From sequence record OV696614: DNA of 64,000 nt, one strand, 5' to 3'. A program made the position numbers and the translations under genes. The DNA comes from Escherichia phage Cyrano. Positions 2,198 through 48,650 of the stretch are shown in pieces (the first letter of the stretch is position 1; each line of letters starts with the position of its first letter). The notes beneath the pieces are model-generated. The model saw only the letters and a list, made by a program, of their open reading frames with translations, made no database searches and was not told the DNA's origin.

Positions 2198-2403
2198 TCG
2201 TGCGTAAAGGATGTTTCGGCTCTCTTATCGCTGCTTCTGAAACTGGTAAGGCTTGTCTGGTATGTCCAGACAAGCCCGATTGTCACCAATCAGCAAAAGA
2301 AGTTGCGATTTCGATGTATGGGAAGTTCGTAGGCTTCCCCAATGACAAAATCAAAAAAACCATAAAGGTAAAAACACATGAAAGCACTGATGGTTCGAAC
2401 TGA
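2194..2403 (+). CDS. small Cys-rich ORF (hypothetical)
   Basis: 69-codon ORF with TTG/GTG start overlapping the upstream stop; four Cys in a C-x13-CxxC-x5-C pattern; overlaps start of the polymerase gene. Weak support. Confidence 0.2.
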   Translation: MIVRKGCFGSLIAASETGKACLVCPDKPDCHQSAKEVAISMYGKFVGFPNDKIKKTIKVKTHESTDGSN

Positions 2404-5400
2404 CTTCTCACTTGGGGAGTCGGCTCTAAAAGCAGAAAACGCGGTGAAGATTGCCAGAGAAGCTGGCTACACCGCTGTAATTTCAGCAGATAGCATGAAT
2501 ATTGCGAGTGTTATTCCACTACAACGTGCCGCTGGTGACGACATGGCGGTTATTTGTGGTGTGAAACTAAATATCGTTGATGATCCCACATACGAGCACC
2601 GGGCTAAACTTGCTAAAGAATCTATGAGATGTATGGAATCATTAGAGCGGGGACGTAACTACTCGTTTACCGCTCTAATTAAAAATGAGCAAGGATATCG
2701 CGACATCTGCGAACTAATGACGGCGGCCAACACACGAGAACAGTTCTACTTTGTACCGCGTCTCTCGCTCGAACAGTTGGTTTCTACATATGCCAAAGGC
2801 AACATCATCCTGCTTACTTCCGACATCGGTAGCGTGTTCCAACGCAACGATTTTGCAAAAATCATAAGCACACTGATTACAGCGGGTGGAAAAGACAACT
2901 TCTATAGTGTGGTTTATCCGCACCCTACCCCATTCTACGACCAGATTAACGTCCGGGCGATGAAAGTCGCCAGCGCATTGAAAATAGAGCCAGTGGCGTT
3001 CTATCCCGCTTATTACGAATCGATCGACGATGCAGACATTAAAGACATTGCGCACATGGTTACGAACAACATCAAAATCGACCAGCCGCATCGTCTGCGT
3101 ATCCCCCACCAGCGAGATAACGCCATCAATGGTCGTCGCCATCTCCTTGAGGCGCTTAAAGCCTTCTCCGTTCGCATGGATGTGCCGGTAACAGCTGCAA
3201 TGGCCTCAACAACGCAGGACTCCATTATCGATGCCTGCACATGGCGCTGGCATGAATTGCCACCAGCACTGCCCAAGATGGCAGACGACGAACCTGCAAC
3301 GCTGATGAAACTGGCTGTTGCAGGGCTGCGTAAACGTCTTACCACAAAAGAGTTTGGATACACACCACCTGCTTCTGAGAACAGGGTTTATGTTGAGCGG
3401 CTAAAGTACGAAATGGACACGCTGACTCGCCTGGGATTCTGTGGTTACTTCCTGATGGTACGCGATCTGATGAATCACAGCCGTGAAACTGGCATTCCTG
3501 TCGGGCCTGGTCGTGGTTCCTCTGCCGGTTCTCTGGTGGCGTGGTGCATAGGCATAACCAACGTCGACCCAATCCGTCACGGTCTTCTGTTTGAGCGTTT
3601 CATCAACCCTGAGCGTCTCGACTTGCCGGATGCGGACTTGGACTTCAGCCAGGCACGTCGCCATGAGGTGATCGAGTATCTGAATGAACGCTACGGCGAA
3701 GATTACGTTGCAGGCATTCCGAACTTCACCTATCTGGGCGCGGCATCTGCACTACGTGACACCGCTCGTATTTATGGTGTGGAGTCCGCAGATATGGCGG
3801 TATCAAAAGAACTGAAGAACGTCGAGGATGATAGCCTTCCATTGGAAGAGCTGCGCGAACAACTGGCAAGTCTCGACAAATACGCAACAAAATATCCTGA
3901 TGCATTCAATGCAGCCTGCAAGTTACAAAGCCTTATGCGTGGCTTTGGTAGACATGCGGCAGGGATGATCGTAGCAGGTGTTCCTCTGACAGAACGTACA
4001 CCGGTTGAGCGCCGTGGTGACGCGCGTTGTATCGCATTTGACAAGCGTTACTGCGAGGCTATGGGCCTAATTAAGCTGGACGTGCTTGGCCTGGCAACTC
4101 TCGATTTGCTCGATAGTGCAAAACGCTACATCAAAGAGAGTACCGGGGAAGACATCAATCTCGACGCTATCCCACTGGACGATCGCAAGGTTCTGGATGG
4201 GTTCGCTGCAGGGTACACGCAGGGCGTATTCCAGCTGGAGTCCGGCCCCATGCGTAAGTTGCTTAAAGATCTGGGCGGTGGCATCGAGCCAATGAGCTTC
4301 AAGACCGTTGTCGCCACGACCGCACTCTTCCGACCAGGCCCGATCCAATCCGGCATGTTGGACGACTATGTCTCCGTGGCCAAAGGCTTCATGGCTCCAC
4401 ATTCAATTCATCCGCGTCTTGAGGAAGTCACCCGGGAGACTAATGGTGTTTTGCTCTATCAGGAACAAATCATGCAAAGTTCCCGAGTACTTGCCGGGTT
4501 CTCTATGGCCGAAGCAGACGCTCTGCGTTCCGCTATCGGTAAAAAGAACATGGATAAGATGAAAGCGATCGGCAGCGATTTTGTAGAACGAGCACAAGCA
4601 GGCTGGGTGACACTGTCACTCAAAAATGGAGGTACTGTAGAGGTTCACAAACACGCAAAACTGGATTGCTCAGACGGTAAGCGTAGAAGCTACAGCGAGG
4701 CTATTAGTGACGGCATAGACTACGTGGAGATCGTCTCTGAACAAGAAGGTCTCAGTAAGGAAAAAGCCCAAGAAATATGGGACGCCTTTGAGAAGTTCGG
4801 TGGATATGCCTTCAACAAATCACACAGTGTTGCTTATTCTTTAATCAGTTATCAGTCTATGTGGCTAAAGACGCACTACCCTGCTGAGTTCTTCGCAGCT
4901 GCGCTCACCATTCTGGGCGAGGATAAGCATCAGGGGCTGGTGAAGGATGCGCTGACCTATGGCATTCGCGTATTGCCACCAGACGTTAATGTGTCATCTA
5001 ACCGAATTGAGATCCGCACACTCGAAGACGGCAGTCAGGCACTGTATGCGCCATTCTCTGCTGTGAAAGGCTGTTCTGAAAATGGTTGTCAGGCAATTAT
5101 GCGTGCGCGTGAGAAAGTTGGTGGCAAATTCGAGTCAGTGGCACAATTCGATGAAGCGGTCGAGAAGCGTGCATGTAACAGTCGTGTACGCGAGTCGCTT
5201 CATAAAGTAGGGGCTTTTGCGTCAATTGAGCCAGGCAGTCTGCCAGCAACTGATCCTGAACGACTGCGCGACCAGGCTGAGCTGATGGGCAATCTCATCA
5301 TTGACGCTGTTAAAGCATCACGTCCGTTCGAAATGAATCCTAAGCGTTCTGCCGAAATCAACGTACTCATGACACGTATGGCGGCTGAAATGGGCTTGGG

Positions 5401-5884
5401 TGAGGAGTTGATACGCCCGACTATTGGTATTAAACCCAAAATCATGATCATTCTGGACAATGCGAACGGCAATGACGCTCGTACCGGCTACTTCATGGAG
5501 AACGGATACGACGACTTTAAGGCAAAACTACTGACAGTTGGAGATCTGCGCATGGGCGATCTTTATGTCACGGGTGTTTGTAAGAAGGTTAAGGACAAAG
5601 AGAAAGACTATACCAAAGACGAGATAGGCCAGTTCACAGACTTTATGCGGGAAGAAATTAATCTTGTACGACCAACCTACATTTTGACGTGTGGTAGTCG
5701 TTCAACCGCACTATTTAACAATAAGAGTAAACCATCAGATCTGATTGGTCGTAAGGAGTACTTCCCAGAGCTTGATGCAACCGTCTTCTACGGATTTAAC
5801 CCGAATATCCTGTACTTCCGACCGGAAGAAGGAGAGCGACTGGAGGCCATTCTGGCTGATATCGCGGAGACAATAAATAAGTAA
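2378..5884 (+). CDS. dnaE: DNA polymerase III alpha-subunit-like replicative polymerase (DnaE family)
   Basis: 1168 aa. Conserved Pol IIIα palm region GFCGYFLMVRDL...GPGRGSSAGSLVAWCIGITNVDP...FERFINPER. N-terminal PHP-like region lacks the usual His residues. About 200 aa C-terminal extension of unclear fold. Confidence 0.85.
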   Translation: MKALMVRTDFSLGESALKAENAVKIAREAGYTAVISADSMNIASVIPLQRAAGDDMAVICGVKLNIVDDPTYEHRAKLAKESMRCMESLERGRNYSFTALIKNEQGYRDICELMTAANTREQFYFVPRLSLEQLVSTYAKGNIILLTSDIGSVFQRNDFAKIISTLITAGGKDNFYSVVYPHPTPFYDQINVRAMKVASALKIEPVAFYPAYYESIDDADIKDIAHMVTNNIKIDQPHRLRIPHQRDNAINGRRHLLEALKAFSVRMDVPVTAAMASTTQDSIIDACTWRWHELPPALPKMADDEPATLMKLAVAGLRKRLTTKEFGYTPPASENRVYVERLKYEMDTLTRLGFCGYFLMVRDLMNHSRETGIPVGPGRGSSAGSLVAWCIGITNVDPIRHGLLFERFINPERLDLPDADLDFSQARRHEVIEYLNERYGEDYVAGIPNFTYLGAASALRDTARIYGVESADMAVSKELKNVEDDSLPLEELREQLASLDKYATKYPDAFNAACKLQSLMRGFGRHAAGMIVAGVPLTERTPVERRGDARCIAFDKRYCEAMGLIKLDVLGLATLDLLDSAKRYIKESTGEDINLDAIPLDDRKVLDGFAAGYTQGVFQLESGPMRKLLKDLGGGIEPMSFKTVVATTALFRPGPIQSGMLDDYVSVAKGFMAPHSIHPRLEEVTRETNGVLLYQEQIMQSSRVLAGFSMAEADALRSAIGKKNMDKMKAIGSDFVERAQAGWVTLSLKNGGTVEVHKHAKLDCSDGKRRSYSEAISDGIDYVEIVSEQEGLSKEKAQEIWDAFEKFGGYAFNKSHSVAYSLISYQSMWLKTHYPAEFFAAALTILGEDKHQGLVKDALTYGIRVLPPDVNVSSNRIEIRTLEDGSQALYAPFSAVKGCSENGCQAIMRAREKVGGKFESVAQFDEAVEKRACNSRVRESLHKVGAFASIEPGSLPATDPERLRDQAELMGNLIIDAVKASRPFEMNPKRSAEINVLMTRMAAEMGLGEELIRPTIGIKPKIMIILDNANGNDARTGYFMENGYDDFKAKLLTVGDLRMGDLYVTGVCKKVKDKEKDYTKDEIGQFTDFMREEINLVRPTYILTCGSRSTALFNNKSKPSDLIGRKEYFPELDATVFYGFNPNILYFRPEEGERLEAILADIAETINK

Positions 5885-7356: not shown

Positions 7357-7581
7357 TCATTTACAACGATCAACCATTCGTTTGATCTGTTTGGCATGGT
7401 TTTCGGGATTACCCGGAGTCGACCATACGCTCATTTGGTGAGTTTTGTGTTCACCTTCTGGATTACCGCATCGCAGTCTGCAAAAACAATGTGCAGCACC
7501 ACCAGCAGCTACCCAGATCCAGCCTTTACTTAATGCATAGTCAATGGCTGCTTGAATATGCTTATTCGGATGTTGCTTCAT
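7357..7581 (-). CDS. putative HicA-like mRNA interferase toxin
   Basis: 74 aa. LSKGWIWVAAGGAAHCFCRLRCG resembles the HicA core (L-x-x-G-x-x-V-x-x-G-x-x-H-x-x-x-R). Gene order toxin then antitoxin matches hicAB. Confidence 0.35.
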   Translation of the reverse strand: MKQHPNKHIQAAIDYALSKGWIWVAAGGAAHCFCRLRCGNPEGEHKTHQMSVWSTPGNPENHAKQIKRMVDRCK

Positions 7582-8383: not shown

Positions 8384-9412
8384 ATGTCTAAGACATTACT
8401 TGATTTGCTTAACAAAACTCGTGAAGACATTGCCGCCAAACGTGGCAACAACGTTGATCTGACTCGCTTAAAAGACGGCGTCAACTATATCCGCATCTTC
8501 CCGAATAAAGACGACCCAAACGGTAAGTTCTTCCAGACTTTCGGTATGCACTACGTTAAGTATCAGAACGAGGAAGGTAAAGAAGCAACCAACGCTTATA
8601 TTTGTGAGCAACATACTCACGGTCGCGCTTGTCAGCTATGCGAAATGGTGATGGAAGGTCGCGCTCGTCACAAGGGTAACAAAGCAATGGAAGAACGCAT
8701 CGGTCAAATGCGTGCCACTCCTCGCTACCTGGTCAACGGCATTCTTTCTGCTCGTGAGGATTTCGCAGATGCTGAGAAATGCCAGTTAATCGAGCTGCCG
8801 TCTACTGTATTCGATGATATCTGCAAAGCAATCACCGAAGACATCGCTGATGATATCGGCAATCCACTGAGCAAAGAGGAAGGCTACGCATTCCTGATTA
8901 AACGTACTGGCTCTGGTCGCGATACCAAATATGACGTCTCGCCTAAGCGTAAAGTCTACAAAGGCGATATCGAAGATAAATTCTGGAACACCCAGCATGA
9001 TCTGATCGCATACGCAAATCAGGCTGATGAAACTCGTCTTCTGTCGACAGTTCGCACTATGGGTCGTCTGATTGGCATCGCTGCACCAACTGCCGCAGCA
9101 TCTGCACCAGCAATTTCCTCAACCGCGAAAACATCGGCTGCGGCACTACCTGGATTTGGCTCTGTCACTGGTCATACAGAAGGAGCGACGGCTGTAGCAA
9201 CCGCGCACACACCGGCTTCTGAACCAACCAGTCTGGTTGATGAAGAAATCCTCCGTGCCGTTGAAACTGAATTTAAACCAGAGGCAAGTTCCGCTGCCGT
9301 TGCCGTATCAGTCAAAGAGTCTGAAGCAGTCGCAGCGACATCTGTAGCAACCGCATCTGCGACGGAAGATGAAGGTCTGGATGACCTACTGAGAGAGCTG
9401 GACTCTCTGTAA
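8384..9412 (+). CDS. single-stranded DNA-binding protein, T4 gp32-like
   Basis: IRIFPNKDDPNGKFFQ resembles the gp32 N-terminus; zinc-ligand pattern CEQHTH...CQLC; acidic C-terminal tail (DEGLDDLLRELDSL); RBS GGAG upstream. Confidence 0.8.
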   Translation: MSKTLLDLLNKTREDIAAKRGNNVDLTRLKDGVNYIRIFPNKDDPNGKFFQTFGMHYVKYQNEEGKEATNAYICEQHTHGRACQLCEMVMEGRARHKGNKAMEERIGQMRATPRYLVNGILSAREDFADAEKCQLIELPSTVFDDICKAITEDIADDIGNPLSKEEGYAFLIKRTGSGRDTKYDVSPKRKVYKGDIEDKFWNTQHDLIAYANQADETRLLSTVRTMGRLIGIAAPTAAASAPAISSTAKTSAAALPGFGSVTGHTEGATAVATAHTPASEPTSLVDEEILRAVETEFKPEASSAAVAVSVKESEAVAATSVATASATEDEGLDDLLRELDSL

Positions 9413-9430
9413 TCCCATTACGTGACCAGT

Positions 9431-9457
9431 AAGGCGTCTACGGACGCCTTACTTTTT
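9431..9457 (+). terminator. rho-independent terminator (AGGCGTC...GACGCCTT family)
   Basis: Hairpin AAGGCGTC-TACG-GACGCCTT followed by TTTTT; same stem sequence recurs at 13031 and 14170. Confidence 0.6.
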
Positions 9458-9472
9458 GGAAGGAATGTACCG

Positions 9473-10417
9473 GTGAATTATCTCTTCGTAGATGGCAATA
9501 GCCTGGGTTATTACCACCAACAATCTGACAAATTGCACAACGGCGAAATGGAAGTACAGGCTGCTTTCGGCTTTGTTAAGAACGTCCGTCGTTATGCCTC
9601 CATCCTCCATGCCCGACCTATGATTCTTTGGGATGGATTTAGTGACAAGCGTCGCGACTTTTACCCGGACTACAAGGCAAATCGCGACGACGATCCTGAT
9701 ATGAAAAAGATGAAGGAAGGCTTTGCTATCCAGAAGCCATACATCCTCAAAATGATGACCGCGCTTGGAGTTACCCAACTCATTGCAAAAGATGCAGAAG
9801 CGGATGATCTGGCCGGGCTGCTGGTATCCCGCATGGCACCGCAGCCAACCGTTGAACACATCTATCTGTTAACAGGCGATAGCGACTGGCTTCAGTTAGT
9901 TCGTGAAAACGTAAGCTGGGTAAGCCTGCGTGAAGACGCCAAAAACAAGCAGGTTAATTTTGAGCAATTTGCGGAGCTGACAGGATTCGCTACTCCTCGC
10001 GCATTTTTGGAAGCAAAAGCATTACAAGGCGATAAATCGGACAACATTAGCGGTGTTGGTGGCATTGGTGCTGGCGGTGCGAAAGAGCTGCTGCATGAAT
10101 GGGGAAGTGTCGCAACGATGGTACGCGGCATCAACGACGGCTCAATCGTGGTTGACAAAGGACGCCATAAGACCGCCTTCAACAAACTAGCGAAGAATGC
10201 CTTCAACGAGAAAACAGGCTGTCGAATGCTCGAAGCGTTCAAGAGAAACATCACGCTAATGAACCTGATTGAGACGAAGTTTCCGCCTACCGAAATCGAA
10301 ACAATCAAAGGCAATCGTGACGTGAAAGCATTCGAGCAACTGTGCTACGAGCTGAATTTCCGTTCGTTCCTTGAAGACCTTGAAGTGTTTGTTCTTCCAT
10401 TCGAAAGGTATTGCTAA
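9473..10417 (+). CDS. 5'-3' exonuclease / flap endonuclease (RNase H-like, FEN family)
   Basis: LFVDGNSLGYY N-terminal motif, EADDLAGLL, LTGDSDWLQLV, and H3TH-like GVGGIGAGGAKELL. Start set at GTG 9473 because the listed 9422 start lies inside the upstream terminator hairpin. Confidence 0.8.
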   Translation: MNYLFVDGNSLGYYHQQSDKLHNGEMEVQAAFGFVKNVRRYASILHARPMILWDGFSDKRRDFYPDYKANRDDDPDMKKMKEGFAIQKPYILKMMTALGVTQLIAKDAEADDLAGLLVSRMAPQPTVEHIYLLTGDSDWLQLVRENVSWVSLREDAKNKQVNFEQFAELTGFATPRAFLEAKALQGDKSDNISGVGGIGAGGAKELLHEWGSVATMVRGINDGSIVVDKGRHKTAFNKLAKNAFNEKTGCRMLEAFKRNITLMNLIETKFPPTEIETIKGNRDVKAFEQLCYELNFRSFLEDLEVFVLPFERYC

Positions 10418-10683
10418 TGCTTAAATCGATTATTAATGGCGCTACAACCACCCCCACCCAACTGGCAAAAGAGATTGTCTTTTATCACGGTGAGTACGCT
10501 GTCATCGCACTGCCGTCAATTCTAGGCGCTGCCGGAATGAAAGCGACAGATCGCGAGTTTGGATTAGTCAGCGAGCAGGTCGTAAAAATCCTCGCTCGTG
10601 TATCCAGACTCCTTAATCACGATGCGATTGTATTCGACGAATCCGCCGCTTTAAAACGAATCAACGAAACAAAAGGAGCCTGA
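10411..10683 (+). CDS. hypothetical protein
   Basis: 90-codon ORF tightly packed between the exonuclease and recombinase genes; no recognisable motif. Confidence 0.4.
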   Translation: MLMLKSIINGATTTPTQLAKEIVFYHGEYAVIALPSILGAAGMKATDREFGLVSEQVVKILARVSRLLNHDAIVFDESAALKRINETKGA

Positions 10684-10685
10684 TC

Positions 10686-13025
10686 ATGGCAAAAGGAAAA
10701 TCCGCACTGGCACTTGCTCTGAAAAAGAAAATCGGTAGCAACGACGAAATTCAGAAAGTAACTCATTGGATTGACACAGGCTTTCCTCCGTTAAACAAAG
10801 CTATTTCCGGTCGTTACGATGGCGGTTTCCCATGTGGTCGTATCGTAGAAGTATTCGGGCCACCAAGCGCGGGGAAATGTGTTACCGCAGACACCATGCT
10901 GCTGACGGAGCGTGGAATGGTAACAGTGAAAGAACTGTTTGAGATTGAGGGGCACAAAGCAACATGCACTACTCGCGATGTAGAGCATAACGTTGGACTC
11001 ATCAATGAAAATGGCGTGATAGAGAAGACCTCACACCTGACATGGAACAACCGTCGCAAATTCAAGCGTATTAAGCTGGCATCAGGCGGTTATATCGAGG
11101 CTACGTTCCGTCACCCAATCCGTGTGGTTGACGACTTAGGTAATGTCGTCTGGCGACATGCTGAAAAAATCAGTGTAGGCGACACGATTCCTTCAATGGT
11201 TGGCACACATCAATTCGGCGATCAGCACCTGGATGCCAATATCGCAAAACTGATGGGCTATTTAATTGCTGACGGATACGTGGCCTCTGAAAATTCAGTG
11301 AATTTTTCTAACACAGATCCTTTCATCAAGGATGAGTACTACCGCCTCATTTCGCTGGTATCAGACAAGATGCCAGTTACGAGAAAACATAACGGCTCGG
11401 AAGACCATGTGCTGTTTAGCAAAGAGGTGCGTTCGCTGCTTTTTAAAGAGTATGGTCTGGAGTATGAGAAAGCTGCTGGCAAGCAGGTTCCGTTGAGTGT
11501 GCGTCGCGCCAATAGCGAGGCTCAAATTGCATTCCTTCGCGGCTACTTTGAGCTGGAATGCCACGTCAATGATGGTCGCTGCATTGAGGTTGTGAGCGCG
11601 AGTGGGCTGCTGCTACAGCAAATTCGCCTCATGCTCCTGAATCTGGGGATTACGTCAACTATCTCTGAAAAACACGTCGCGGGTTATGAAAATACATATT
11701 ACCGGCTGTCATTCAGTGGCTCTAATTACGACCTTTTTCTGTCAACGATTGGTTTCGAATCTCCGGCACGTTTATCAGTGGCAACCAAACGGGACATTGG
11801 TTTTGACCGCACTTACTCAGGCTATGTTCCGCACATCAGCGGCTTAGTGAAATCACTCTACGAGTCGCTCACCAAGACCACCCGTGAAGACTACGCTCTG
11901 GTAGACCACGTTATTGGCCGCGGCGATCGTGTCGGAATAGACAAACTGCGAGAAATCTATGTCTCCTTCATTGGCAGAAAGAATCGTTTTAACGAGCATC
12001 TGTTTGCACAACTGGCAGCGGTAATTGGCTCTAACTTGTTCTACGACGAAGTCGTGGCTATTGAGGAAGGTGAAGCACCAACGTTCGACGTAGCGATGCC
12101 GGAAACACACTCTTTCTGGTCTAACGGGATTATCAGCCACAACACATTCCTTGCAACAGCAGCGATGATCTCCGCTCAAAAACAAGATGGTCTGGCGGTA
12201 TTCCTCGATCATGAAAACAGTTTTGACGTTGGCCTGGCTGTAGCCAATGGCCTGAACGCAGATGAGGATGACGGTCAGTGGGTATACAAGCAGCCAGATA
12301 CCTTCGAAGACTCTGTAGAGTTGATCGGCACAATACTTAAATTGGTTCGTGATGAAGAGCTTATCCCCGAATCAGCACCTATCTGTATCGTGGCTGACTC
12401 TCTTGCGTCTATGGTTCCGAACTCCAAAGCCGAGAAGTTCGAAAAGATGGCTGAAGGCACTGCCAAAGACAAAGATCAGCTAAACATGAACGACAATACG
12501 GCACTGGCTCGTGCGACGAGTGCGAACTTCCCTACTCTGGCTTTGTGGGCACGCAAATACAACGCCTGCATCATCTTCTTGAATCAGGTTCGCACAAAAA
12601 TCGGTGTAATGTTTGGCGACCCTACTACGTCGCCAGGTGGAGATTCACCGAAGTTTTACGCTTCTGTGCGCATCCGTCTCGGTGCATCGGTGATGAAGGA
12701 TGGGAAAGAGAAGATCGGCCAGGACGTAGGCGCAGAATGCATCAAAAACAAAGTTGCACCACCGTATGGCAAATGCACCTGGAAATTCTACTTCGATCCT
12801 ACTCGTGGCCTCGACGTTATCGAGTCGCTCGTCGAGTACATGCTGGAAGAAGGATACCTGCCAAAGAACGCCAGCGGGCGAGTTGAAATTGGTGACAAGA
12901 AATACACCAAATCGCAGATCGTCGACATGTATCGGGAGAAGCCATTAGCAGAAATCATTGCTGCGTTACAGGCGATAGATGACCGACGAGAGAAGACATC
13001 ACCAACAGAAGAACTAGAAGATTAA
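10686..13025 (+). CDS. recA: RecA-family recombinase interrupted by an intein
   Basis: N-extein GRIVEVFGPPSAGK and C-extein TFLATAAMISAQ rebuild a RecA-like P-loop (GPPSAGKT). C-extein contains IFLNQVRTKIGVMFGDPTTSPGGDSPKFYASVRIR, very close to the RecA L2 region. Exteins total about 357 aa. Confidence 0.85.
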   Translation: MAKGKSALALALKKKIGSNDEIQKVTHWIDTGFPPLNKAISGRYDGGFPCGRIVEVFGPPSAGKCVTADTMLLTERGMVTVKELFEIEGHKATCTTRDVEHNVGLINENGVIEKTSHLTWNNRRKFKRIKLASGGYIEATFRHPIRVVDDLGNVVWRHAEKISVGDTIPSMVGTHQFGDQHLDANIAKLMGYLIADGYVASENSVNFSNTDPFIKDEYYRLISLVSDKMPVTRKHNGSEDHVLFSKEVRSLLFKEYGLEYEKAAGKQVPLSVRRANSEAQIAFLRGYFELECHVNDGRCIEVVSASGLLLQQIRLMLLNLGITSTISEKHVAGYENTYYRLSFSGSNYDLFLSTIGFESPARLSVATKRDIGFDRTYSGYVPHISGLVKSLYESLTKTTREDYALVDHVIGRGDRVGIDKLREIYVSFIGRKNRFNEHLFAQLAAVIGSNLFYDEVVAIEEGEAPTFDVAMPETHSFWSNGIISHNTFLATAAMISAQKQDGLAVFLDHENSFDVGLAVANGLNADEDDGQWVYKQPDTFEDSVELIGTILKLVRDEELIPESAPICIVADSLASMVPNSKAEKFEKMAEGTAKDKDQLNMNDNTALARATSANFPTLALWARKYNACIIFLNQVRTKIGVMFGDPTTSPGGDSPKFYASVRIRLGASVMKDGKEKIGQDVGAECIKNKVAPPYGKCTWKFYFDPTRGLDVIESLVEYMLEEGYLPKNASGRVEIGDKKYTKSQIVDMYREKPLAEIIAALQAIDDRREKTSPTEELED
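10878..12143 (+). mobile_element. intein with double-motif LAGLIDADG homing endonuclease, inserted in the RecA P-loop
   Basis: In-frame 422-aa insert starting with Cys (CVTADTML) and ending in His-Asn (IISHN) before Thr+1; LAGLIDADG-type motifs LMGYLIADGYV and FLRGYFELECHV. Confidence 0.75.
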
Positions 13026-16253: not shown

Positions 16254-17309
16254 CTATTTGCGAGTCTTTGCCTTGCGCAACTCTTCGAGAAGCGCCAGTT
16301 CTTCTTTACTCAACATGACCATTTTGCCTTCTTTTTCGTCAGGCACAACGTCGATAATGTCATCTTGATTCTCATCTGGGAGGCTATATTCCGTCTCATC
16401 ATTATCGATTTTTGTTGATATTTGTGCCTGGCGTAACTTTGGCCGCCTATAGTGGATGACGAAGTAGACCGAGTTTCCGCGCTTAACTTCCGTGTAATCG
16501 AGATATCCTATCTCTCGCAGCTGTTCCATAGCCTTTCTTACCGTCGCATTCTGAGTAATAGTGCGACTTGTCAGATTAAGTCTGGCGCGTAAACGGGCTA
16601 GTGATATTGGTGCCGGATCAGGCGGCAAACTTTCAATAAAAGTATAAAGCGCCTGAGCGGATTCTTTTCTTGAGAGTTCGTTTATAGCCCGGAGTTGCAG
16701 AAGAACCTTTTTGTCGAACTGGTAGAGTTCGAAAATCTTGGGATCTGCTTTCAGTTCGACCGTATCGTGCTTGACACTATATTTTGCCGTTTGCACAAGA
16801 TGCGTTACGTAAAACTCATCAGAGCCTTTGCTACGGAACGAGATGGTATTTGTGGCAATACGGCTTAGCGAACTGTCCAGGCGTTTGCGTAACTTCGCTG
16901 ATGACCTGGCGGTCGGAATGCCACACAGCCTTACAAACTCAACGAACGGCAACGTGACAGTATCGCCAACGACCTTGTGTTTGGCAAACGCGTGGATTAT
17001 TCCCACCCACGTTTTAAAGTCGTTATCCATATCAAGCCGAAGGCCAGAGATCCTTATGTCTTCGTACCCTTCGGCTTTTGCCAGAGACAGCTGTTTGAGT
17101 TCAGCAGAGGCATCCATAGAGACCATTTGCCCCTTTCTTCCTCTGGATGTCGATTTCAGCGTCGGAACGAAGAGGCCCAGACGCATCAAAGCAACAGGCT
17201 GAACAGTGTTATTAGTGTTAGGAACCAACGTAACAACTTCGCCTGTCTTTTTATCTGTTTCTGAAAATGCTTCAACGATCGCTATGTTTTTATTGCCGTT
17301 TTCGCTCAT
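16254..17309 (-). CDS. repA: iteron-binding replication initiator (RepA/Rep_3-like)
   Basis: 351 aa flanked on both sides by iteron arrays; C-terminal half has a winged-helix-like pattern typical of Rep_3 initiators (…ALYTFIESL…[12 protein letters not shown]…[19 protein letters not shown]…). Confidence 0.65.
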
Positions 17310-28250: not shown

Positions 28251-29354
28251 GTGTCACTCCTTTTGAATCGAGAGCATACGAACGGTCAGGTAACAAACGC
28301 ATCGTATGCAAAAGTTATTGAGACGGTGCTTAAAAGCGGCGTGCAGGCTGATGATCGCACAGGCACTGGCACTTTAAGCACCTGCTACGTTCCCTCTTAC
28401 TACATGCTTACTGGTGGGACTGTGCCGCTTATTTCTGGAAAGGCGGTAAATCTTAAGCCACTACTTGTCGAACTTGAGTGGTATCTGAAAGGCACGGGCA
28501 ACATCCAATTTCTCAAGGATAACGGCGTTAAGATTTGGGATGCATGGGCCGATGAGAATGGCGATTTGGGGCCGGTTTACGGTAAGCAGTGGCGTCGATG
28601 GGAAGATACCCGCATCGTGAGCCATAGTGAATATCTGAGCAAGATCGCTACTTTCCGTGAACGCGGGTACAAAGTCGAGGGATACCTGGGTATCAGTGAA
28701 GATCGCGTAGTGCTGTCCCGTGAAATCGATCAGCTACAGCGTATTGTCGATACACTGCGCACGAACCCTACCGATCGTCGCATCATGCTTAACGCATGGA
28801 ACGTAGGCGAGCTTGAGGATATGAAACTGCCACCTTGCCACTTTGTCTTCTCTTTGTGGAGTCGTGAGCTGGATTTTGAAACCCGTTTAACGATGGCAAC
28901 TGACATTGGTCTTCAACACAGTCGCCTCGGTTACGAGTCTATCTACACCAAGATGCTATACGATCTGGAGATGGACGGCAGTGTTACTGAAGCTGAACTG
29001 GATGAACTTGGAATCCCCAAACGCATCCTCAACTCCTGCCTCGTACAGCGTAGCGTAGACACTTTTGTTGGTATGCCATTCAATATTGCTGGCTATGGCA
29101 TTCTCACTCATTTTCTCGCGAAGATTACGGGTCACATGGCCGGTGCATTTGTGCATTTTGGCTTTGACGTGCATTTGTACAACAACCACATGGAAGGTGT
29201 GTGTGAGCTAATGAAACGACAGGCTCCAGAGCATTCAGATCCGGTCGTTATTTTCCCTCATGAATGGTCAGAGTTGGATGATTTCAAATGGGACGAGGTT
29301 TTAATTCTTGGCTATGACCCTCTACCGTGGATCAAGGTTCCAGTGGCGGTGTGA
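28251..29354 (+). CDS. thyA: thymidylate synthase with two internal insertions
   Basis: DRTGTGTLS, IWDAWADENGDLGPVYGKQWRRW, DRRIMLNAWNVGELEDMKLPPCHF and MPFNIAGY match ThyA active-site blocks; 367 aa versus about 264 in E. coli, so insertions are present. GTG start. Confidence 0.85.
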   Translation: MSLLLNREHTNGQVTNASYAKVIETVLKSGVQADDRTGTGTLSTCYVPSYYMLTGGTVPLISGKAVNLKPLLVELEWYLKGTGNIQFLKDNGVKIWDAWADENGDLGPVYGKQWRRWEDTRIVSHSEYLSKIATFRERGYKVEGYLGISEDRVVLSREIDQLQRIVDTLRTNPTDRRIMLNAWNVGELEDMKLPPCHFVFSLWSRELDFETRLTMATDIGLQHSRLGYESIYTKMLYDLEMDGSVTEAELDELGIPKRILNSCLVQRSVDTFVGMPFNIAGYGILTHFLAKITGHMAGAFVHFGFDVHLYNNHMEGVCELMKRQAPEHSDPVVIFPHEWSELDDFKWDEVLILGYDPLPWIKVPVAV

Positions 29355-45358: not shown

Positions 45359-46459
45359 TCACACTGCGCGGAATGCGATTTCGCCAGGTATTACTTCACC
45401 TTGCCAATACATTTGGGCAGCAACGCGATCTGCGAGGTCACGATAAATAGCCGTAAATTCGCTATCTGGACGACTAATAACGGTTGGTGTTCCGTTATCC
45501 AGATCTTCACGAAGAGAGATATGAAGTGGCATTTGGCCTAACAACTGCGTGTTGTATTTCTCGGCCAGTTTCTGTGCGCCACCGGTGCCAAAAATTGGCT
45601 CGTGATGACCGCAGTTACTGCAAATATGCACACTCATGTTTTCGACGATACCCAGTACCGGCACTTCGACTTTTTCGAACATCACAATGCCTTTCTTCGC
45701 ATCGATCAGCGCGATGTCTTGCGGCGTAGTTACCACAACCGCACCAGTTACAGGAATGTTCTGCGCCAGCGTCAACTGAATATCACCAGTGCCCGGCGGC
45801 ATATCGAGAACGAGATAGTCCAGATCAGGCCACAGTGTTTCCTGCAACATCTGCATCAGCGCCTTGCTGGCCATCGGTCCACGCCACACCATCGCATTGT
45901 CGTCAGTGACCAGATAACCAATTGAATTGGTTGCCAGGCCATGAGACATGATAGGTGCCATGTGAGTACCGTCAGGTGAGGTTGGACGTTGGTTTTCCGC
46001 GCCCAGCATGGTTGGAATTGATGGCCCGTAGATATCGGCATCCAAAATACCAACTTTCGCACCTTCAGCCGCCAGCGCCAGCGCCAGGTTTACCGCCGTG
46101 GAGGATTTACCCACGCCGCCTTTACCGGAGCTGACCGCAATGATGTTCTTCACGCCATTAATGCCTGGTTGGTTTTTGACGCGCTTAAGCGTGGCAATGT
46201 TGTACGACAGCTTCCAGTCAATAGCCTTTGCGCCAGTGATACGGAGCAGATCACCACTACATTGCTCTTTCAGATCTTCAAAAGGCTTATTCCACACGAA
46301 AGGCATGATTAGTTCGACATGCAGTGTGTCATCCATCAACGCAACATGGTGTAACGCTTTAAGCGTAGTCAGGTTGTGTTTCAGGGTTGGGTGCTGAAAA
46401 TTAGCCAGCGTACCGGCTACCATTGCTCTCAGGGCATCCGGCGATTTGGACTCGCTCAT
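45359..46459 (-). CDS. apbC: Fe-S cluster carrier ATPase ApbC/Mrp
   Basis: 366 aa with deviant Walker A SGKGGVGKSSTAVNLA and CSNCGHHEP motif; matches the enterobacterial Mrp protein by recall; divergent from metG as on the E. coli chromosome. Confidence 0.9.
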   Translation of the reverse strand: MSESKSPDALRAMVAGTLANFQHPTLKHNLTTLKALHHVALMDDTLHVELIMPFVWNKPFEDLKEQCSGDLLRITGAKAIDWKLSYNIATLKRVKNQPGINGVKNIIAVSSGKGGVGKSSTAVNLALALAAEGAKVGILDADIYGPSIPTMLGAENQRPTSPDGTHMAPIMSHGLATNSIGYLVTDDNAMVWRGPMASKALMQMLQETLWPDLDYLVLDMPPGTGDIQLTLAQNIPVTGAVVVTTPQDIALIDAKKGIVMFEKVEVPVLGIVENMSVHICSNCGHHEPIFGTGGAQKLAEKYNTQLLGQMPLHISLREDLDNGTPTVISRPDSEFTAIYRDLADRVAAQMYWQGEVIPGEIAFRAV

Positions 46460-46616
46460 CCCGTCTCCTTTATTTTAATTTGCGCAATTGTCGCCTTGTA
46501 GTGTACTCCAGCTACGACATTTAATCATTTATGAGAAATGCTGTTATCACATGGCAGACATAAGGCCATTTTGTTACTATCAAGCCCCTTTTCACTACAA
46601 AGAAGTAATGCCTACT

Positions 46617-48650
46617 ATGACCCAAGTCGCGAAGAAAATTCTGGTGACGTGCGCGCTGCCGTACGCTAACGGCTCAATCCACCTCGGCCATATGCTGGAG
46701 CACATCCAGGCTGATGTCTGGGTTCGTTACCAGCGAATGCGCGGCCACGAGGTTAATTTCATCTGTGCCGACGATGCCCACGGTACGCCGATCATGCTGA
46801 AAGCACAGCAGCTTGGTATCACACCGGAGCAGATGATTGGCGAAATGAGTCAGGAGCATCAGACTGATTTCGCAGGCTTTAACATCAGCTATGACAACTA
46901 TCACTCGACGCACAGCGAAGAGAACCGTCAGTTGTCTGAGCTTATCTATACTCGCCTGAAAGAGAACGGTTTTATTAAAAACCGCACTATCTCTCAGTTG
47001 TACGACCCGGAAAAAGGCATGTTCCTGCCGGATCGTTTTGTGAAAGGCACCTGCCCGAAATGTAAAGCGCCAGATCAATACGGCGATAACTGTGAAGTCT
47101 GCGGCGCAACATATAGCCCGACTGAATTGATCGAGCCGAAATCGGTGGTTTCTGGCGCTACCCCGGTAATGCGTGATTCCGAACACTTCTTCTTTGATCT
47201 GCCTTCTTTCAGCGAAATGTTGCAGGCATGGACCCGCAGCGGCGCGTTGCAGGAGCAGGTGGCAAACAAAATGCAGGAGTGGTTTGAATCTGGCCTGCAA
47301 CAGTGGGATATCTCCCGCGATGCGCCTTACTTCGGTTTTGAAATTCCGGACGCGCCGGGCAAATATTTCTACGTCTGGCTGGACGCGCCGATTGGCTACA
47401 TGGGTTCCTTCAAGAATCTGTGCGACAAGCGCGGCGATACCACCAGCTTCGATGAATACTGGAAGAAAGACTCCACCGCCGAGCTGTACCACTTCATCGG
47501 TAAAGATATTGTTTACTTCCACAGCCTGTTCTGGCCTGCCATGCTGGAAGGCAGCAACTTCCGCAAGCCGACCAACCTGTTTGTTCACGGCTATGTGACG
47601 GTGAACGGCGCGAAGATGTCCAAGTCTCGCGGCACCTTTATTAAAGCCAGCACCTGGCTGAATCATTTTGACGCTGACAGCCTGCGTTACTACTACACTG
47701 CGAAACTCTCTTCGCGCATTGATGATATCGATCTCAACCTGGAGGATTTCGTTCAGCGCGTGAATGCCGATATCGTGAACAAAGTGGTTAACCTGGCCTC
47801 CCGTAATGCAGGCTTTATCAACAAGCGTTTTGACGGCGTGCTGGCAAGCGAACTGGCTGACCCGCAACTGTACAAAACCTTTACTGATGCCGCTGAAGTG
47901 ATTGGCGAAGCATGGGAAAGCCGTGAATTTGGTAAAGCTATCCGTGAAATCATGGCATTGGCTGACCTGGCTAACCGCTATGTCGATGAACAGGCTCCGT
48001 GGGTGGTGGCGAAGCAGGAAGGACGCGATGCCGATCTGCAGGCGATTTGCTCTATGGGCATTAACCTGTTCCGCGTGCTGATGACGTACCTGAAGCCGGT
48101 ACTGCCGAAACTGACTGAACGTGCAGAAGCATTCCTGAATACAGAACTGACCTGGGATGGCATCCAGCAACCGTTGCTGGGCCATAAAGTGAATCCGTTC
48201 AAGGCACTGTATAACCGCATCGATATGAAGCAGGTTGAAGCACTGGTGGAAGCATCCAAAGAAGAAGTGAAAGCCACAGCCGCACCGGTAACTGGCCCAC
48301 TGGCTGACGACCCGATTCAGGAAACTATCACCTTTGACGACTTCGCCAAAGTTGACCTGCGCGTGGCGCTGATTGAAAACGCAGAGTTTGTAGAAGGTTC
48401 TGACAAACTGCTACGCCTGACGCTGGATCTCGGTGGTGAAAAGCGTAATGTCTTCTCAGGCATCCGTTCTGCTTATCCAGACCCACAGGCACTGATTGGT
48501 CGTCACACCATTATGGTGGCTAACCTGGCTCCGCGTAAAATGCGCTTCGGTATCTCCGAAGGCATGGTGATGGCTGCTGGCCCCGGCGGGAAAGATATCT
48601 TCCTGTTAAGCCCGGATGCTGGTGCTAAACCAGGCCACCAGGTTAAGTAA
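46617..48650 (+). CDS. metG: methionyl-tRNA synthetase
   Basis: 677 aa starting [26 protein letters not shown] (HIGH motif), KMSKS motif present, zinc knuckles CPKC...CEVC; near-identical to E. coli MetG by recall. Start set at ATG 46617, not the listed upstream 46488. Confidence 0.95.

What the first reader, a model, noticed from the sequence alone, without database searches (positions are those of the whole stretch)
10878..12143. Intein with LAGLIDADG homing endonuclease inserted in the P-loop of a RecA homologue
The 422-aa insert begins with Cys and ends with His-Asn before Thr+1, and splicing it out regenerates GPPSAGKT. Insertion at the ATP-binding loop is a classic intein site. It indicates a mobile genetic parasite inside the recombinase and means the active recombinase depends on protein splicing.
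Basis: partly seen in the sequence, partly recalled or inferred. Interest (0 to 1): 0.5.

Follow-up and report, generated by a model that had tools for sequence, protein, structure and literature searches.

The report
Known homing intein in phage-plasmid recombinase
The RecA-like recombinase gene of this SSU5-type phage-plasmid is interrupted in its ATP-binding loop by a genuine self-splicing intein carrying a homing endonuclease; the intein was catalogued in 2015, so it is a correct but not a new finding.

Summary
ORF 10686-13025 (+, 779 aa) is a RecA/UvsX-like recombinase. Its Walker A loop, GPPSAGK|T, is split by a 422-aa insert (nt 10878-12143) that runs Cys1 ... His-Asn | Thr+1.

Removing the insert gives a 357-aa, 39.1-kDa protein. 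It aligns without gaps to natural intein-free alleles (350/357 to phage CMS-2020a).

Pfam Intein_splicing, TIGR01445 and LAGLIDADG_3 all score above their curated cut-offs. All splicing blocks and both endonuclease acidic residues (D132, E227) are present. An AlphaFold model matches full-length endonuclease-containing inteins (TliVMA, PI-PfuI, PI-SceI).

It is already known. Topilina et al. 2015 list a RecA P-loop intein "c2 (65-486)" in E. coli, Enterobacter and Salmonella and call it the first E. coli intein. Some RefSeq records name the gene "intein-containing recombinase RecA".

What I add:
- The host gene belongs to an SSU5-like phage-plasmid, not the chromosome.
- The intein sits in 247 of 687 PLSDB plasmids that carry the gene.
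- It is 97-99.8% identical across lineages whose exteins are only 77-86% identical (dS 0.05-0.08 versus 1.2-1.85).
- Its flanks carry short co-conversion marks. This is population evidence of recent homing.

Splicing and cleavage have not been tested experimentally.

The parts
10686..10877 (+). N-extein (64 aa) of the RecA/UvsX-like recombinase, ending in the Walker A residues GPPSAGK
   Evidence: It is 192/192 nt identical to the intein-free alleles p503829_100 and SP15_P2.
10878..12143 (+). Intein, 422 aa (47.5 kDa), running Cys1 to His421-Asn422
   Evidence: Pfam Intein_splicing and LAGLIDADG_3. TIGR01445. AF2 model with pLDDT 82 and pTM 0.85. Foldseek top hit TliVMA intein 7qss, E 2.5e-20, TM 0.70. 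Same residue range, 65-486, as the 'c2' RecA inteins of Topilina et al. 2015.
10878..10916 (+). Splicing block A, CVTADTMLLTERG, with the Cys1 nucleophile
   Evidence: The block is conserved in relatives P0004-P0014.
11103..11114 (+). Splicing block B, T76-F-R-H79 (the TxxH motif)
11250..11276 (+). First LAGLIDADG motif, LMGYLIADG (catalytic Asp132)
   Evidence: It aligns with the first motif of the TliVMA intein endonuclease.
11535..11561 (+). Second LAGLIDADG motif, LRGYFELEC (catalytic Glu227)
12084..12143 (+). Splicing blocks F and G, PTFDVAMPETHSFWSNGIISHN, ending in His-Asn
   Evidence: S412 and F413 are among the nearly invariant columns in alignment A2.
12144..13025 (+). C-extein (293 aa plus stop), starting with Thr+1 (ACA) and carrying the rest of the RecA ATPase core
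   Evidence: Pfam RecA positions 63-257. The ACA codon at +1 marks all 5 intein-containing alleles examined; the 6 intein-free alleles have ACG or ACC.
8384..9412 (+). Context: gp32-like single-strand DNA-binding protein
   Evidence: Pfam gp32 E 1.7e-66; phrog_1192.
9473..10417 (+). Context: 5'-3' exonuclease (FEN / Pol I N-terminal type) directly upstream of the recombinase operon
   Evidence: Pfam 5_3_exonuc_N and 5_3_exonuc. Start position taken from the annotated orthologues.

Best explanation
This is a canonical class-1 intein with a nested two-motif LAGLIDADG homing endonuclease. It is inserted after the Walker A lysine (GPPSAGK|T) of the RecA/UvsX-like recombinase of an SSU5-type phage-plasmid of Escherichia coli.

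Inferred mechanism for splicing:
- The 86.6-kDa precursor cannot form a working ATP-binding loop.
- Cys1 performs an N-S acyl shift, assisted by block B residues T76 and H79.
- Thr+1 attacks the resulting thioester.
- Asn422 cyclises, assisted by His421, and releases the 47.5-kDa intein.
- An O-N shift leaves the 39.1-kDa recombinase with an intact P-loop.

Inferred mechanism for spread:
- The freed intein acts as a site-specific endonuclease, using Asp132 and Glu227 for catalysis.
- It cuts intein-free alleles at the GCG GGG AAA|ACx TTC region when two phage-plasmids share a cell.
- Repair from the intein-containing copy copies the intein in, together with a few flanking bases.

Shown here: the anatomy, the precise presence/absence polymorphism, the horizontal spread and the purifying selection. 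Inferred: the splicing chemistry, the endonuclease activity and the target site.
For: Anatomy:
- Cys1, T76xxH79, block F/G ...THSFWSNGIISHN, and Thr+1 are all present.
- Domain models score above their curated cut-offs.
- The AF2 model (pLDDT 82) matches TliVMA, PI-PfuI, PI-TkoII and PI-SceI at E 1e-20 to 1e-8.

Precise insertion:
- Intein-free alleles are collinear with the spliced product: 350/357 aa to CMS-2020a and 340/358 to SSU5.
- The N-extein is 192/192 nt identical to p503829_100.

Homing signature:
- Within the same records, the intein is 97.2-99.8% identical between E. coli-, Klebsiella- and Enterobacter-type plasmids whose exteins are only 77-86% identical.
- Synonymous divergence (dS) is 0.05-0.08 for the intein and 1.2-1.85 for the exteins.
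- Within each lineage, intein-containing and intein-free alleles have C-exteins 97.5-99.9% identical.
- All intein-containing alleles share the flanks GCG GGG AAA|ACA. Most intein-free alleles differ synonymously at -7, -4 and +3; all six differ at +3.

Selection:
- Intein dN/dS is 0.16-0.23, including the endonuclease domain.

Distribution:
- 247 of 687 PLSDB plasmids with the gene carry the intein.
- 114 of 250 complete E. coli genomes with the gene carry it, always on plasmids.

Literature:
- The same intein is listed as RecA insertion point c2 (65-486) in E. coli, Enterobacter and Salmonella (PMC4513877).
- The P-loop is a documented intein hot spot (PMC4760082).
Against: - No experimental evidence of splicing or of DNA cleavage for this intein was found in the searchable literature.
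- The dN/dS estimate rests on few substitutions: 22-23 synonymous and 12-13 non-synonymous over the whole intein.
- The second LAGLIDADG motif is divergent (LRGYFELEC, with Glu where Asp is usual).
- Spread could in principle occur by ordinary homologous recombination between co-resident phage-plasmids, without endonuclease activity.
- The +3 marker could reflect target immunity rather than co-conversion.
Confidence: 0.9

Rival explanations
1. The intein can splice, but its endonuclease is inactive or decaying. Its patchy distribution then reflects ordinary homologous recombination between related phage-plasmids plus vertical inheritance, not endonuclease-driven homing.
For: No cleavage data exist. 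More distant relatives at the same site have clearly degenerated endonuclease domains: P0007, P0012 and P0013 lack the first LAGLIDADG motif. These phage-plasmids carry their own recombination module, so gene conversion without a targeted break is conceivable.
Against: Both catalytic acidic residues are retained, and dN/dS in the endonuclease region is 0.16-0.23 rather than about 1. The exchanged tract is strikingly confined to the intein plus about 3-10 flanking bases, in backgrounds with exteins only 77-86% identical. That pattern is what break-initiated repair at the insertion site produces. It is not what random homologous exchange produces.
Confidence: 0.25
2. The insert is a native or domesticated domain of this recombinase, or a non-splicing insertion that leaves the gene a pseudogene. 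This is the refutation scenario named by the first reader.
For: RefSeq often names the whole ORF simply 'LAGLIDADG family homing endonuclease'. PHROGs files the 779-aa protein as a family of unknown function, phrog_9666.
Against: About two thirds of plasmids with this gene lack the insert exactly. All residues needed for splicing are conserved. The ORF is intact in all five intein-containing alleles examined. Extein dN/dS is 0.01-0.02 between intein-containing alleles.
Confidence: 0.02
3. The intein also serves as a conditional switch. Splicing, and therefore recombinase activity, would be gated by a signal such as redox state at Cys1, ssDNA, or lytic induction, as reported for the P. horikoshii RadA P-loop intein.
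For: The insertion point and the -1 Lys / +1 Thr context are the same as in Pho RadA, whose splicing is controlled by its exteins (PMC4513877). Many ATPases retain P-loop inteins, which some authors argue is adaptive (PMC4760082).
Against: Nothing in the sequence data requires this. Presence/absence polymorphism within near-identical plasmid backgrounds shows the intein is dispensable. The 2015 authors state that Pho-RadA-like extein-intein packing is sterically impossible in their model of the E. coli precursor.
Confidence: 0.12

Closest known systems
[quoted passage not shown]
   Same: Identical residue range (65-486), the same P-loop site and the same host genera. E. coli MS 145-7, listed in that table, carries a gene 98.8% identical to the window's (H86). 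This is the same element.
   Different: That paper treats it as a bacterial RecA intein and does not mention phage or prophage. Here the host gene is shown to be the RecA/UvsX-like recombinase of SSU5-type phage-plasmids, never chromosomal. The window allele has three private substitutions (V90, H94, N142) relative to four other alleles.
Pyrococcus horikoshii RadA intein (insertion point c1; PDB 4e2t)
   Same: Same insertion point at the end of the Walker A loop of a RecA-superfamily recombinase, with Lys at -1, Cys1 and Thr+1. The HINT fold matches at E 1e-4.
   Different: Pho RadA is a 172-aa mini-intein without an endonuclease. Sequence similarity is low, and the 2015 authors infer an independent invasion.
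Endonuclease-containing archaeal and yeast inteins: TliVMA (7qss), PI-PfuI (1dq3), PI-TkoII (2cw7), PI-SceI (1vde)
   Same: Bipartite architecture: a HINT splicing domain interrupted by a monomeric two-motif LAGLIDADG endonuclease. Best structural matches are TM 0.70 to 7qss and E 1e-20 to 1e-8 overall. Sequence similarity is confined to the endonuclease domain, E about 1e-7.
   Different: Only 10-22% sequence identity, and different host proteins (V-ATPase, RNR, DNA polymerase). Those enzymes have demonstrated cleavage activity; this one has not.
Mycobacterium tuberculosis RecA intein (PI-MtuI; insertion point a)
   Same: An endonuclease-containing intein in a RecA-family recombinase. The recombinase is active only after splicing (PMC11377839, listed).
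   Different: Different insertion site (residues 252-691, at the monomer-monomer interface) and no close sequence relationship. The NF007072 'intein-containing recombinase RecA' model scores only 100.8 bits against a cut-off of 1024.
Metagenomic relatives at the same site (P0004-P0013) and a RuvB P-loop mini-intein (P0014)
   Same: The inteins are 27-44% identical and inserted at GK|C...HN|T(T) of RecA-family proteins. P0004 lies in a syntenic block of AAA_5, DnaE, gp32, FEN and recombinase.
   Different: P0007, P0008, P0009 and P0012 are canonical bacterial-type RecA proteins with the RecA C-terminal domain. Several have degenerated endonuclease domains. P0014 is in RuvB.

Membership tests
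Intein (HINT-domain protein-splicing element) | In-frame insertion that is precisely absent from orthologous alleles, so that removing it restores a conserved host motif | tested here: met
   Gap-free 357-aa alignment to CMS-2020a and SSU5; GPPSAGKT is restored. p503829_100 and SP15_P2 are identical through the N-extein.
Intein (HINT-domain protein-splicing element) | N-terminal nucleophile (Cys or Ser at position 1) and the block B TxxH motif | tested here: met
   Cys1 and T76-F-R-H79. Both are conserved in relatives.
Intein (HINT-domain protein-splicing element) | C-terminal His-Asn followed by Cys, Ser or Thr at +1 | tested here: met
   ...IISH421-N422 | T+1.
Intein (HINT-domain protein-splicing element) | HINT fold and profile match above the curated threshold | tested here: met
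   PF14890 scores 46.5 bits (cut-off 35.8). TIGR01445 scores 36.4 bits (cut-off 24.5). Foldseek hits solved inteins at E down to 2.5e-20.
Intein (HINT-domain protein-splicing element) | Autocatalytic protein splicing that yields ligated exteins and free intein | not testable with these tools
   No experimental report was found. Indirect support only: ORFs are intact and the exteins are under strong purifying selection.
LAGLIDADG homing endonuclease (monomeric, two-motif, intein-nested) | Two LAGLIDADG motifs, each with a catalytic acidic residue | tested here: met
   LMGYLIADG (D132) and LRGYFELEC (E227). PF14528 scores 65.7 bits (cut-off 22.5).
LAGLIDADG homing endonuclease (monomeric, two-motif, intein-nested) | Site-specific double-strand cleavage of the intein-free allele | not testable with these tools
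   Inferred only. The candidate target is the junction GGGCCACCAAGCGCGGGGAAA|ACNTTCCTTGCAACAGCAGCG.
LAGLIDADG homing endonuclease (monomeric, two-motif, intein-nested) | Population signature of homing: horizontal spread, presence/absence polymorphism and flanking co-conversion | tested here: met
   Intein dS is 0.05-0.08 against extein dS of 1.2-1.85. Intein identity is 97-99.8% against 77-86% for the exteins. Flank markers at -7, -4 and +3 are shared by all intein-containing alleles.
Bacterial RecA (TIGR02012 equivalog) | Score at or above the equivalog cut-off (325.3 bits) | tested here: not met
   The precursor scores 132.5 bits and the intein-free allele 153.7 bits. It is a RecA-superfamily member (PF00154, 145.6 bits against a cut-off of 27) but best matches phrog_97 'UvsX-like recombinase' at 1e-91.
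RecA c2 intein allele (Topilina et al. 2015) | Insertion at residues 65-486 of an enterobacterial RecA-like protein, at the end of the P-loop | tested here: met
   Coordinates are identical. The strain MS 145-7 plasmid gene is 98.8% identical.

The most novel reading that the evidence does not exclude
The intein may be more than a passenger. It may be a currently active homing element sweeping through the SSU5-like phage-plasmids of clinical Enterobacteriaceae, with the remaining intein-free alleles protected by synonymous 'immunity' changes at the target, for example ACG or ACC instead of ACA at Thr+1. Its splicing might in addition be conditional, gating the phage-plasmid's recombinase to particular states such as redox stress, DNA damage or lytic replication.
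Probability: 0.12. Interest if true: 0.55.

Novelty: already known. Interest (0 to 1): 0.25.

Why it matters
E. coli is the standard 'intein-free' host for intein biotechnology, so a native, widespread intein is a useful fact. It occurs in about 2% of complete E. coli genomes (114 of 5426, all on phage-plasmids), but it was reported in 2015. The modest new value lies in three points.

- The host gene is the recombinase of SSU5-type phage-plasmids, which are common in clinical E. coli, Klebsiella and Enterobacter.
- The population data give an unusually clean natural record of recent intein homing. The record includes near-identical intein-containing and intein-free allele pairs that would serve directly as substrates for a homing assay.
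- Many RefSeq records mislabel the whole recombinase as 'LAGLIDADG family homing endonuclease'.

Tried and rejected
- Base composition: the intein's GC content (0.46-0.50) is indistinguishable from that of the exteins and neighbouring genes, so there is no foreign-DNA signal.
- Literature on this intein in phage-plasmids: searches for 'intein'+'SSU5', 'SSU5'+'LAGLIDADG' and 'RecA intein'+Enterobacter+LAGLIDADG returned nothing. The 'intein'+'phage-plasmid' hits were irrelevant (toxin-intein antimicrobials).
- Other inteins or homing endonucleases in the window: Pfam scans of the other 19 ORFs of at least 250 aa found none, with the antisense ORF 46674-48185 left out. DnaE, NrdA, NrdB, the SbcC-like ATPase and the helicase were all clean.
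- 'Native RecA domain' and 'pseudogene' readings: rejected on the intein-free alleles and the conserved catalytic residues.
- Membership of the M. tuberculosis-type 'intein-containing RecA' family (NF007072): rejected. The score is 100.8 bits against a cut-off of 1024, and the insertion site differs.
- Sequence search of the PDB: it detected only endonuclease-domain similarity, at about 1e-7. The fold search was needed to show the full intein architecture.
Full report
**1. What is in the sequence**

The region lies in one ORF, 10686-13025 on the + strand, encoding 779 aa. Translation gives MAKGK...VFGPPSAGK | CVTADTMLLTERG ... FWSNGIISHN | TFLATAAM.... Cys is residue 65 (nt 10878), His-Asn are residues 485-486 (ending at nt 12143), and Thr is residue 487.

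Removing it restores the Walker A motif GPPSAGKT. The resulting protein is 357 aa and 39.07 kDa; the intein is 47.5 kDa and the precursor 86.6 kDa.

**2. Is the insert an intein?**

Profile matches:
- Pfam finds RecA split around the insert (E 3e-36).
- Intein_splicing scores 46.5 bits (cut-off 35.8) and LAGLIDADG_3 scores 65.7 bits (cut-off 22.5).
- NCBIfam TIGR01445 (intein N-terminal region) scores 36.4 bits (cut-off 24.5). There are many partial hits to intein-containing archaeal RFC, IF-2, GyrA, DnaB and V-ATPase models.

Canonical blocks, all present:
- Block A, CVTADT..., with Cys1.
- Block B, T76-F-R-H79.
- Two LAGLIDADG motifs: LMGYLIADG (Asp132) and LRGYFELEC (Glu227).
- Blocks F and G, TFDVAMPETHSFWSNGIISHN.

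Structure: an AlphaFold2 model built on an 11-sequence alignment has mean pLDDT 82 and pTM 0.85. Its best PDB matches are full-length endonuclease-containing inteins:
- TliVMA 7qss, E 2.5e-20, TM 0.70.
- PI-PfuI, PI-TkoII, PhoVMA and PI-SceI.
- After these come mini-inteins (including Pho RadA) and the free-standing enzyme I-DmoI.

**3. Natural intein-free alleles**

Megablast against phage genomes places the window in the SSU5 group of phage-plasmids. Escherichia phage PhiR41_1 and Klebsiella phage vB_KpnS_p4727 carry the intein. Phage CMS-2020a and Salmonella phage SSU5 (gp60, 'putative RecA-like recombinase') lack it.

The spliced window protein aligns without any gap to CMS-2020a (350/357 identical) and, across the junction, to SSU5 (340/358). 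This disposes of the 'native domain' alternative.

**4. It is already known**

Topilina, Novikova, Stanger, Banavali and Belfort (NAR 2015, PMC4513877) mined RadA/RecA inteins. Their Table 1 lists 'c2 (65-486)' in eight E. coli strains, two Enterobacter strains and one Salmonella strain. [quoted passage not shown]

One listed strain, MS 145-7, carries a plasmid gene 98.8% identical to the window ORF (H86). Some RefSeq records already call the protein 'intein-containing recombinase RecA'. PHROGs has a 779-position family for it, phrog_9666. The P-loop as an intein hot spot is documented in PMC4760082.

I found no report of experimental splicing or cleavage for this intein. I also found no paper linking it to phage-plasmids: the 2015 paper contains no occurrence of 'phage' or 'prophage'.

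**5. Context**

The host protein is not the cellular RecA.
- It scores 132-154 bits on the recA equivalog TIGR02012, whose cut-off is 325.
- It best matches phrog_97, 'UvsX-like recombinase', at 1e-91.
- In 5426 complete E. coli genomes, all 252 matches are on plasmids and none on chromosomes.

The gene sits in a replication-recombination module. The module comprises an AAA_5 ATPase, DnaE, a gp32-like SSB (8384-9412), a 5'-3' exonuclease (9473-10417), a small ORF, the recombinase, an SPFH protein, RepA, SbcCD-like proteins, NrdAB, ThyA and DHFR. The closest record to the exteins is E. coli plasmid p15ODDR, which also carries phage terminase, portal and capsid genes.

**6. Evidence for mobility (my addition)**

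Distribution:
- In PLSDB the C-extein gene occurs in 687 plasmids: Klebsiella 268, Escherichia 186, Enterobacter 89, Yersinia 63, Salmonella 42 and others.
- The intein occurs in 247 of them (36%) and is not recorded in Yersinia.
- In complete E. coli genomes, 114 of the 250 carriers of the gene have the intein.

Divergence, compared within the same records:

| Comparison | Intein | Exteins |
|---|---|---|
| nt identity between E. coli-, Klebsiella- and Enterobacter-type plasmids | 97.2-99.8% | 77-86% |
| Synonymous divergence (dS) | 0.05-0.08 | 1.2-1.85 |

Within each lineage, intein-containing and intein-free alleles have almost identical C-exteins: 99.9%, 99.5% and 97.5%. The intein has therefore entered at least three diverged lineages recently.

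Flank markers:
- All intein-containing alleles share GCG GGG AAA | ACA TTC.
- Intein-free E. coli alleles have GCA GGG AAA|ACG.
- Intein-free Klebsiella alleles have GCT GGC AAA|ACC.
- Intein-free Enterobacter and SSU5 alleles have GCC GGT AAA|ACC TTT TTG.
- Two intein-free E. coli plasmids (p503829_100 and SP15_P2) are identical to the window through all 192 nt of the N-extein. Their first difference is the third base of the Thr+1 codon (ACG versus ACA), and the next is at +318.

No intein-free PLSDB allele matches the window's 100-nt spliced junction perfectly. The best matches are 99/100.

This is the pattern expected from break-initiated gene conversion with very short co-conversion tracts. 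Alternatively, the surviving intein-free alleles may be resistant to cleavage. Intein dN/dS is 0.16-0.23, including the endonuclease region (about 17 synonymous and 10 non-synonymous changes), which argues for maintained function.

**7. Relatives**

A protein search found 27-44% identical inteins at the same GK|C...HN|T(T) site:
- In canonical RecA proteins from metagenomes and one 550-kb genome contig (P0007, P0008, P0009, P0012, P0013). Several of these have decayed endonuclease domains.
- In a syntenic phage-type module (P0004).
- A mini-intein with similar terminal blocks in the RuvB P-loop (P0014).

The c2 family is therefore broader than the Enterobacteriaceae listed in 2015.

**8. Verdict**

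The novelty rating is 'already known'.

Mechanistic steps that remain inferred:
- The splicing chemistry.
- Dependence of the recombinase on splicing.
- Endonuclease activity and its target.

Confidence that this is a functional intein is about 0.9. Confidence that its endonuclease is currently active is about 0.65. Interest is low to moderate (0.25). The value lies in the phage-plasmid context and the clean population record of homing, which supplies ready-made substrate pairs for experiments.

Noticed in passing
window 45359-48650: The phage-plasmid carries apbC (mrp) and metG (methionyl-tRNA synthetase) in the divergent arrangement I recall from the E. coli chromosome. About 200 PLSDB plasmids, almost all from Escherichia or Shigella, share this block at 95-99% identity. 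A chromosome-sized (4.9 Mb) E. coli record is only about 91% identical. The block therefore looks like an old, conserved capture of two housekeeping genes by the Escherichia branch of SSU5-like phage-plasmids.
   Followed up: partly
window 28251-29354: The thymidylate synthase ORF is 367 aa, about 100 aa longer than a typical ThyA. Its Pfam match is split into two stretches, the first covering only profile positions 2-154 of 266. This suggests an internal insertion. No intein or endonuclease domain was detected there.
   Followed up: no
window 10878-11207 (first ~110 intein codons): The window's exteins are almost identical to p15ODDR (1 difference in 1032 nt). Its intein, however, differs from p15ODDR at 13 positions, 8 of them in the first 330 nt. 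These include three substitutions (V90, H94, N142) that are private relative to four other alleles (I90, Y94, H142). This looks like a mosaic, recombinant intein 5' part.
   Followed up: partly
L011 ~7430-7440 (ENA metagenome contig k141_7541, relative P0004): In a 44%-identical intein in a syntenic block of AAA_5, DnaE, gp32, FEN and recombinase, the conserved Trp of block F (THSFWSNG) is an in-frame TGA. This splits the gene into a 478-aa ORF and a 306-aa ORF. It could be a nonsense mutation, a sequencing error, or TGA read as Trp. P0004 also has Gly at the position of the second catalytic acidic residue (YMECGCH).
   Followed up: partly
P0014 (542-aa metagenomic RuvB): This RuvB carries a 170-aa mini-intein at its Walker A loop (GPPGLGK|CVTADT...CNHN|TTL). 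Its terminal blocks resemble those of the RecA c2 intein, which suggests the intein family moves between P-loops of different ATPases.
   Followed up: no
window 8384-13025: A gp32-like SSB, a FEN-type 5'-3' exonuclease and a UvsX-like recombinase lie together. This is a T4-style recombination-dependent replication module inside a plasmid-like prophage that also has a Rep3-type initiator (16254-17309, minus strand) and its own DnaE (2378-5884).
   Followed up: partly
RefSeq and PLSDB records of this gene (e.g. NZ_MG904996.1 46522-48861): PGAP names the whole 779-aa recombinase precursor 'LAGLIDADG family homing endonuclease' in most records. In others it is named 'intein-containing recombinase RecA', 'hint domain-containing protein' or 'hypothetical protein'. 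This inconsistency hides the recombinase.
   Followed up: yes
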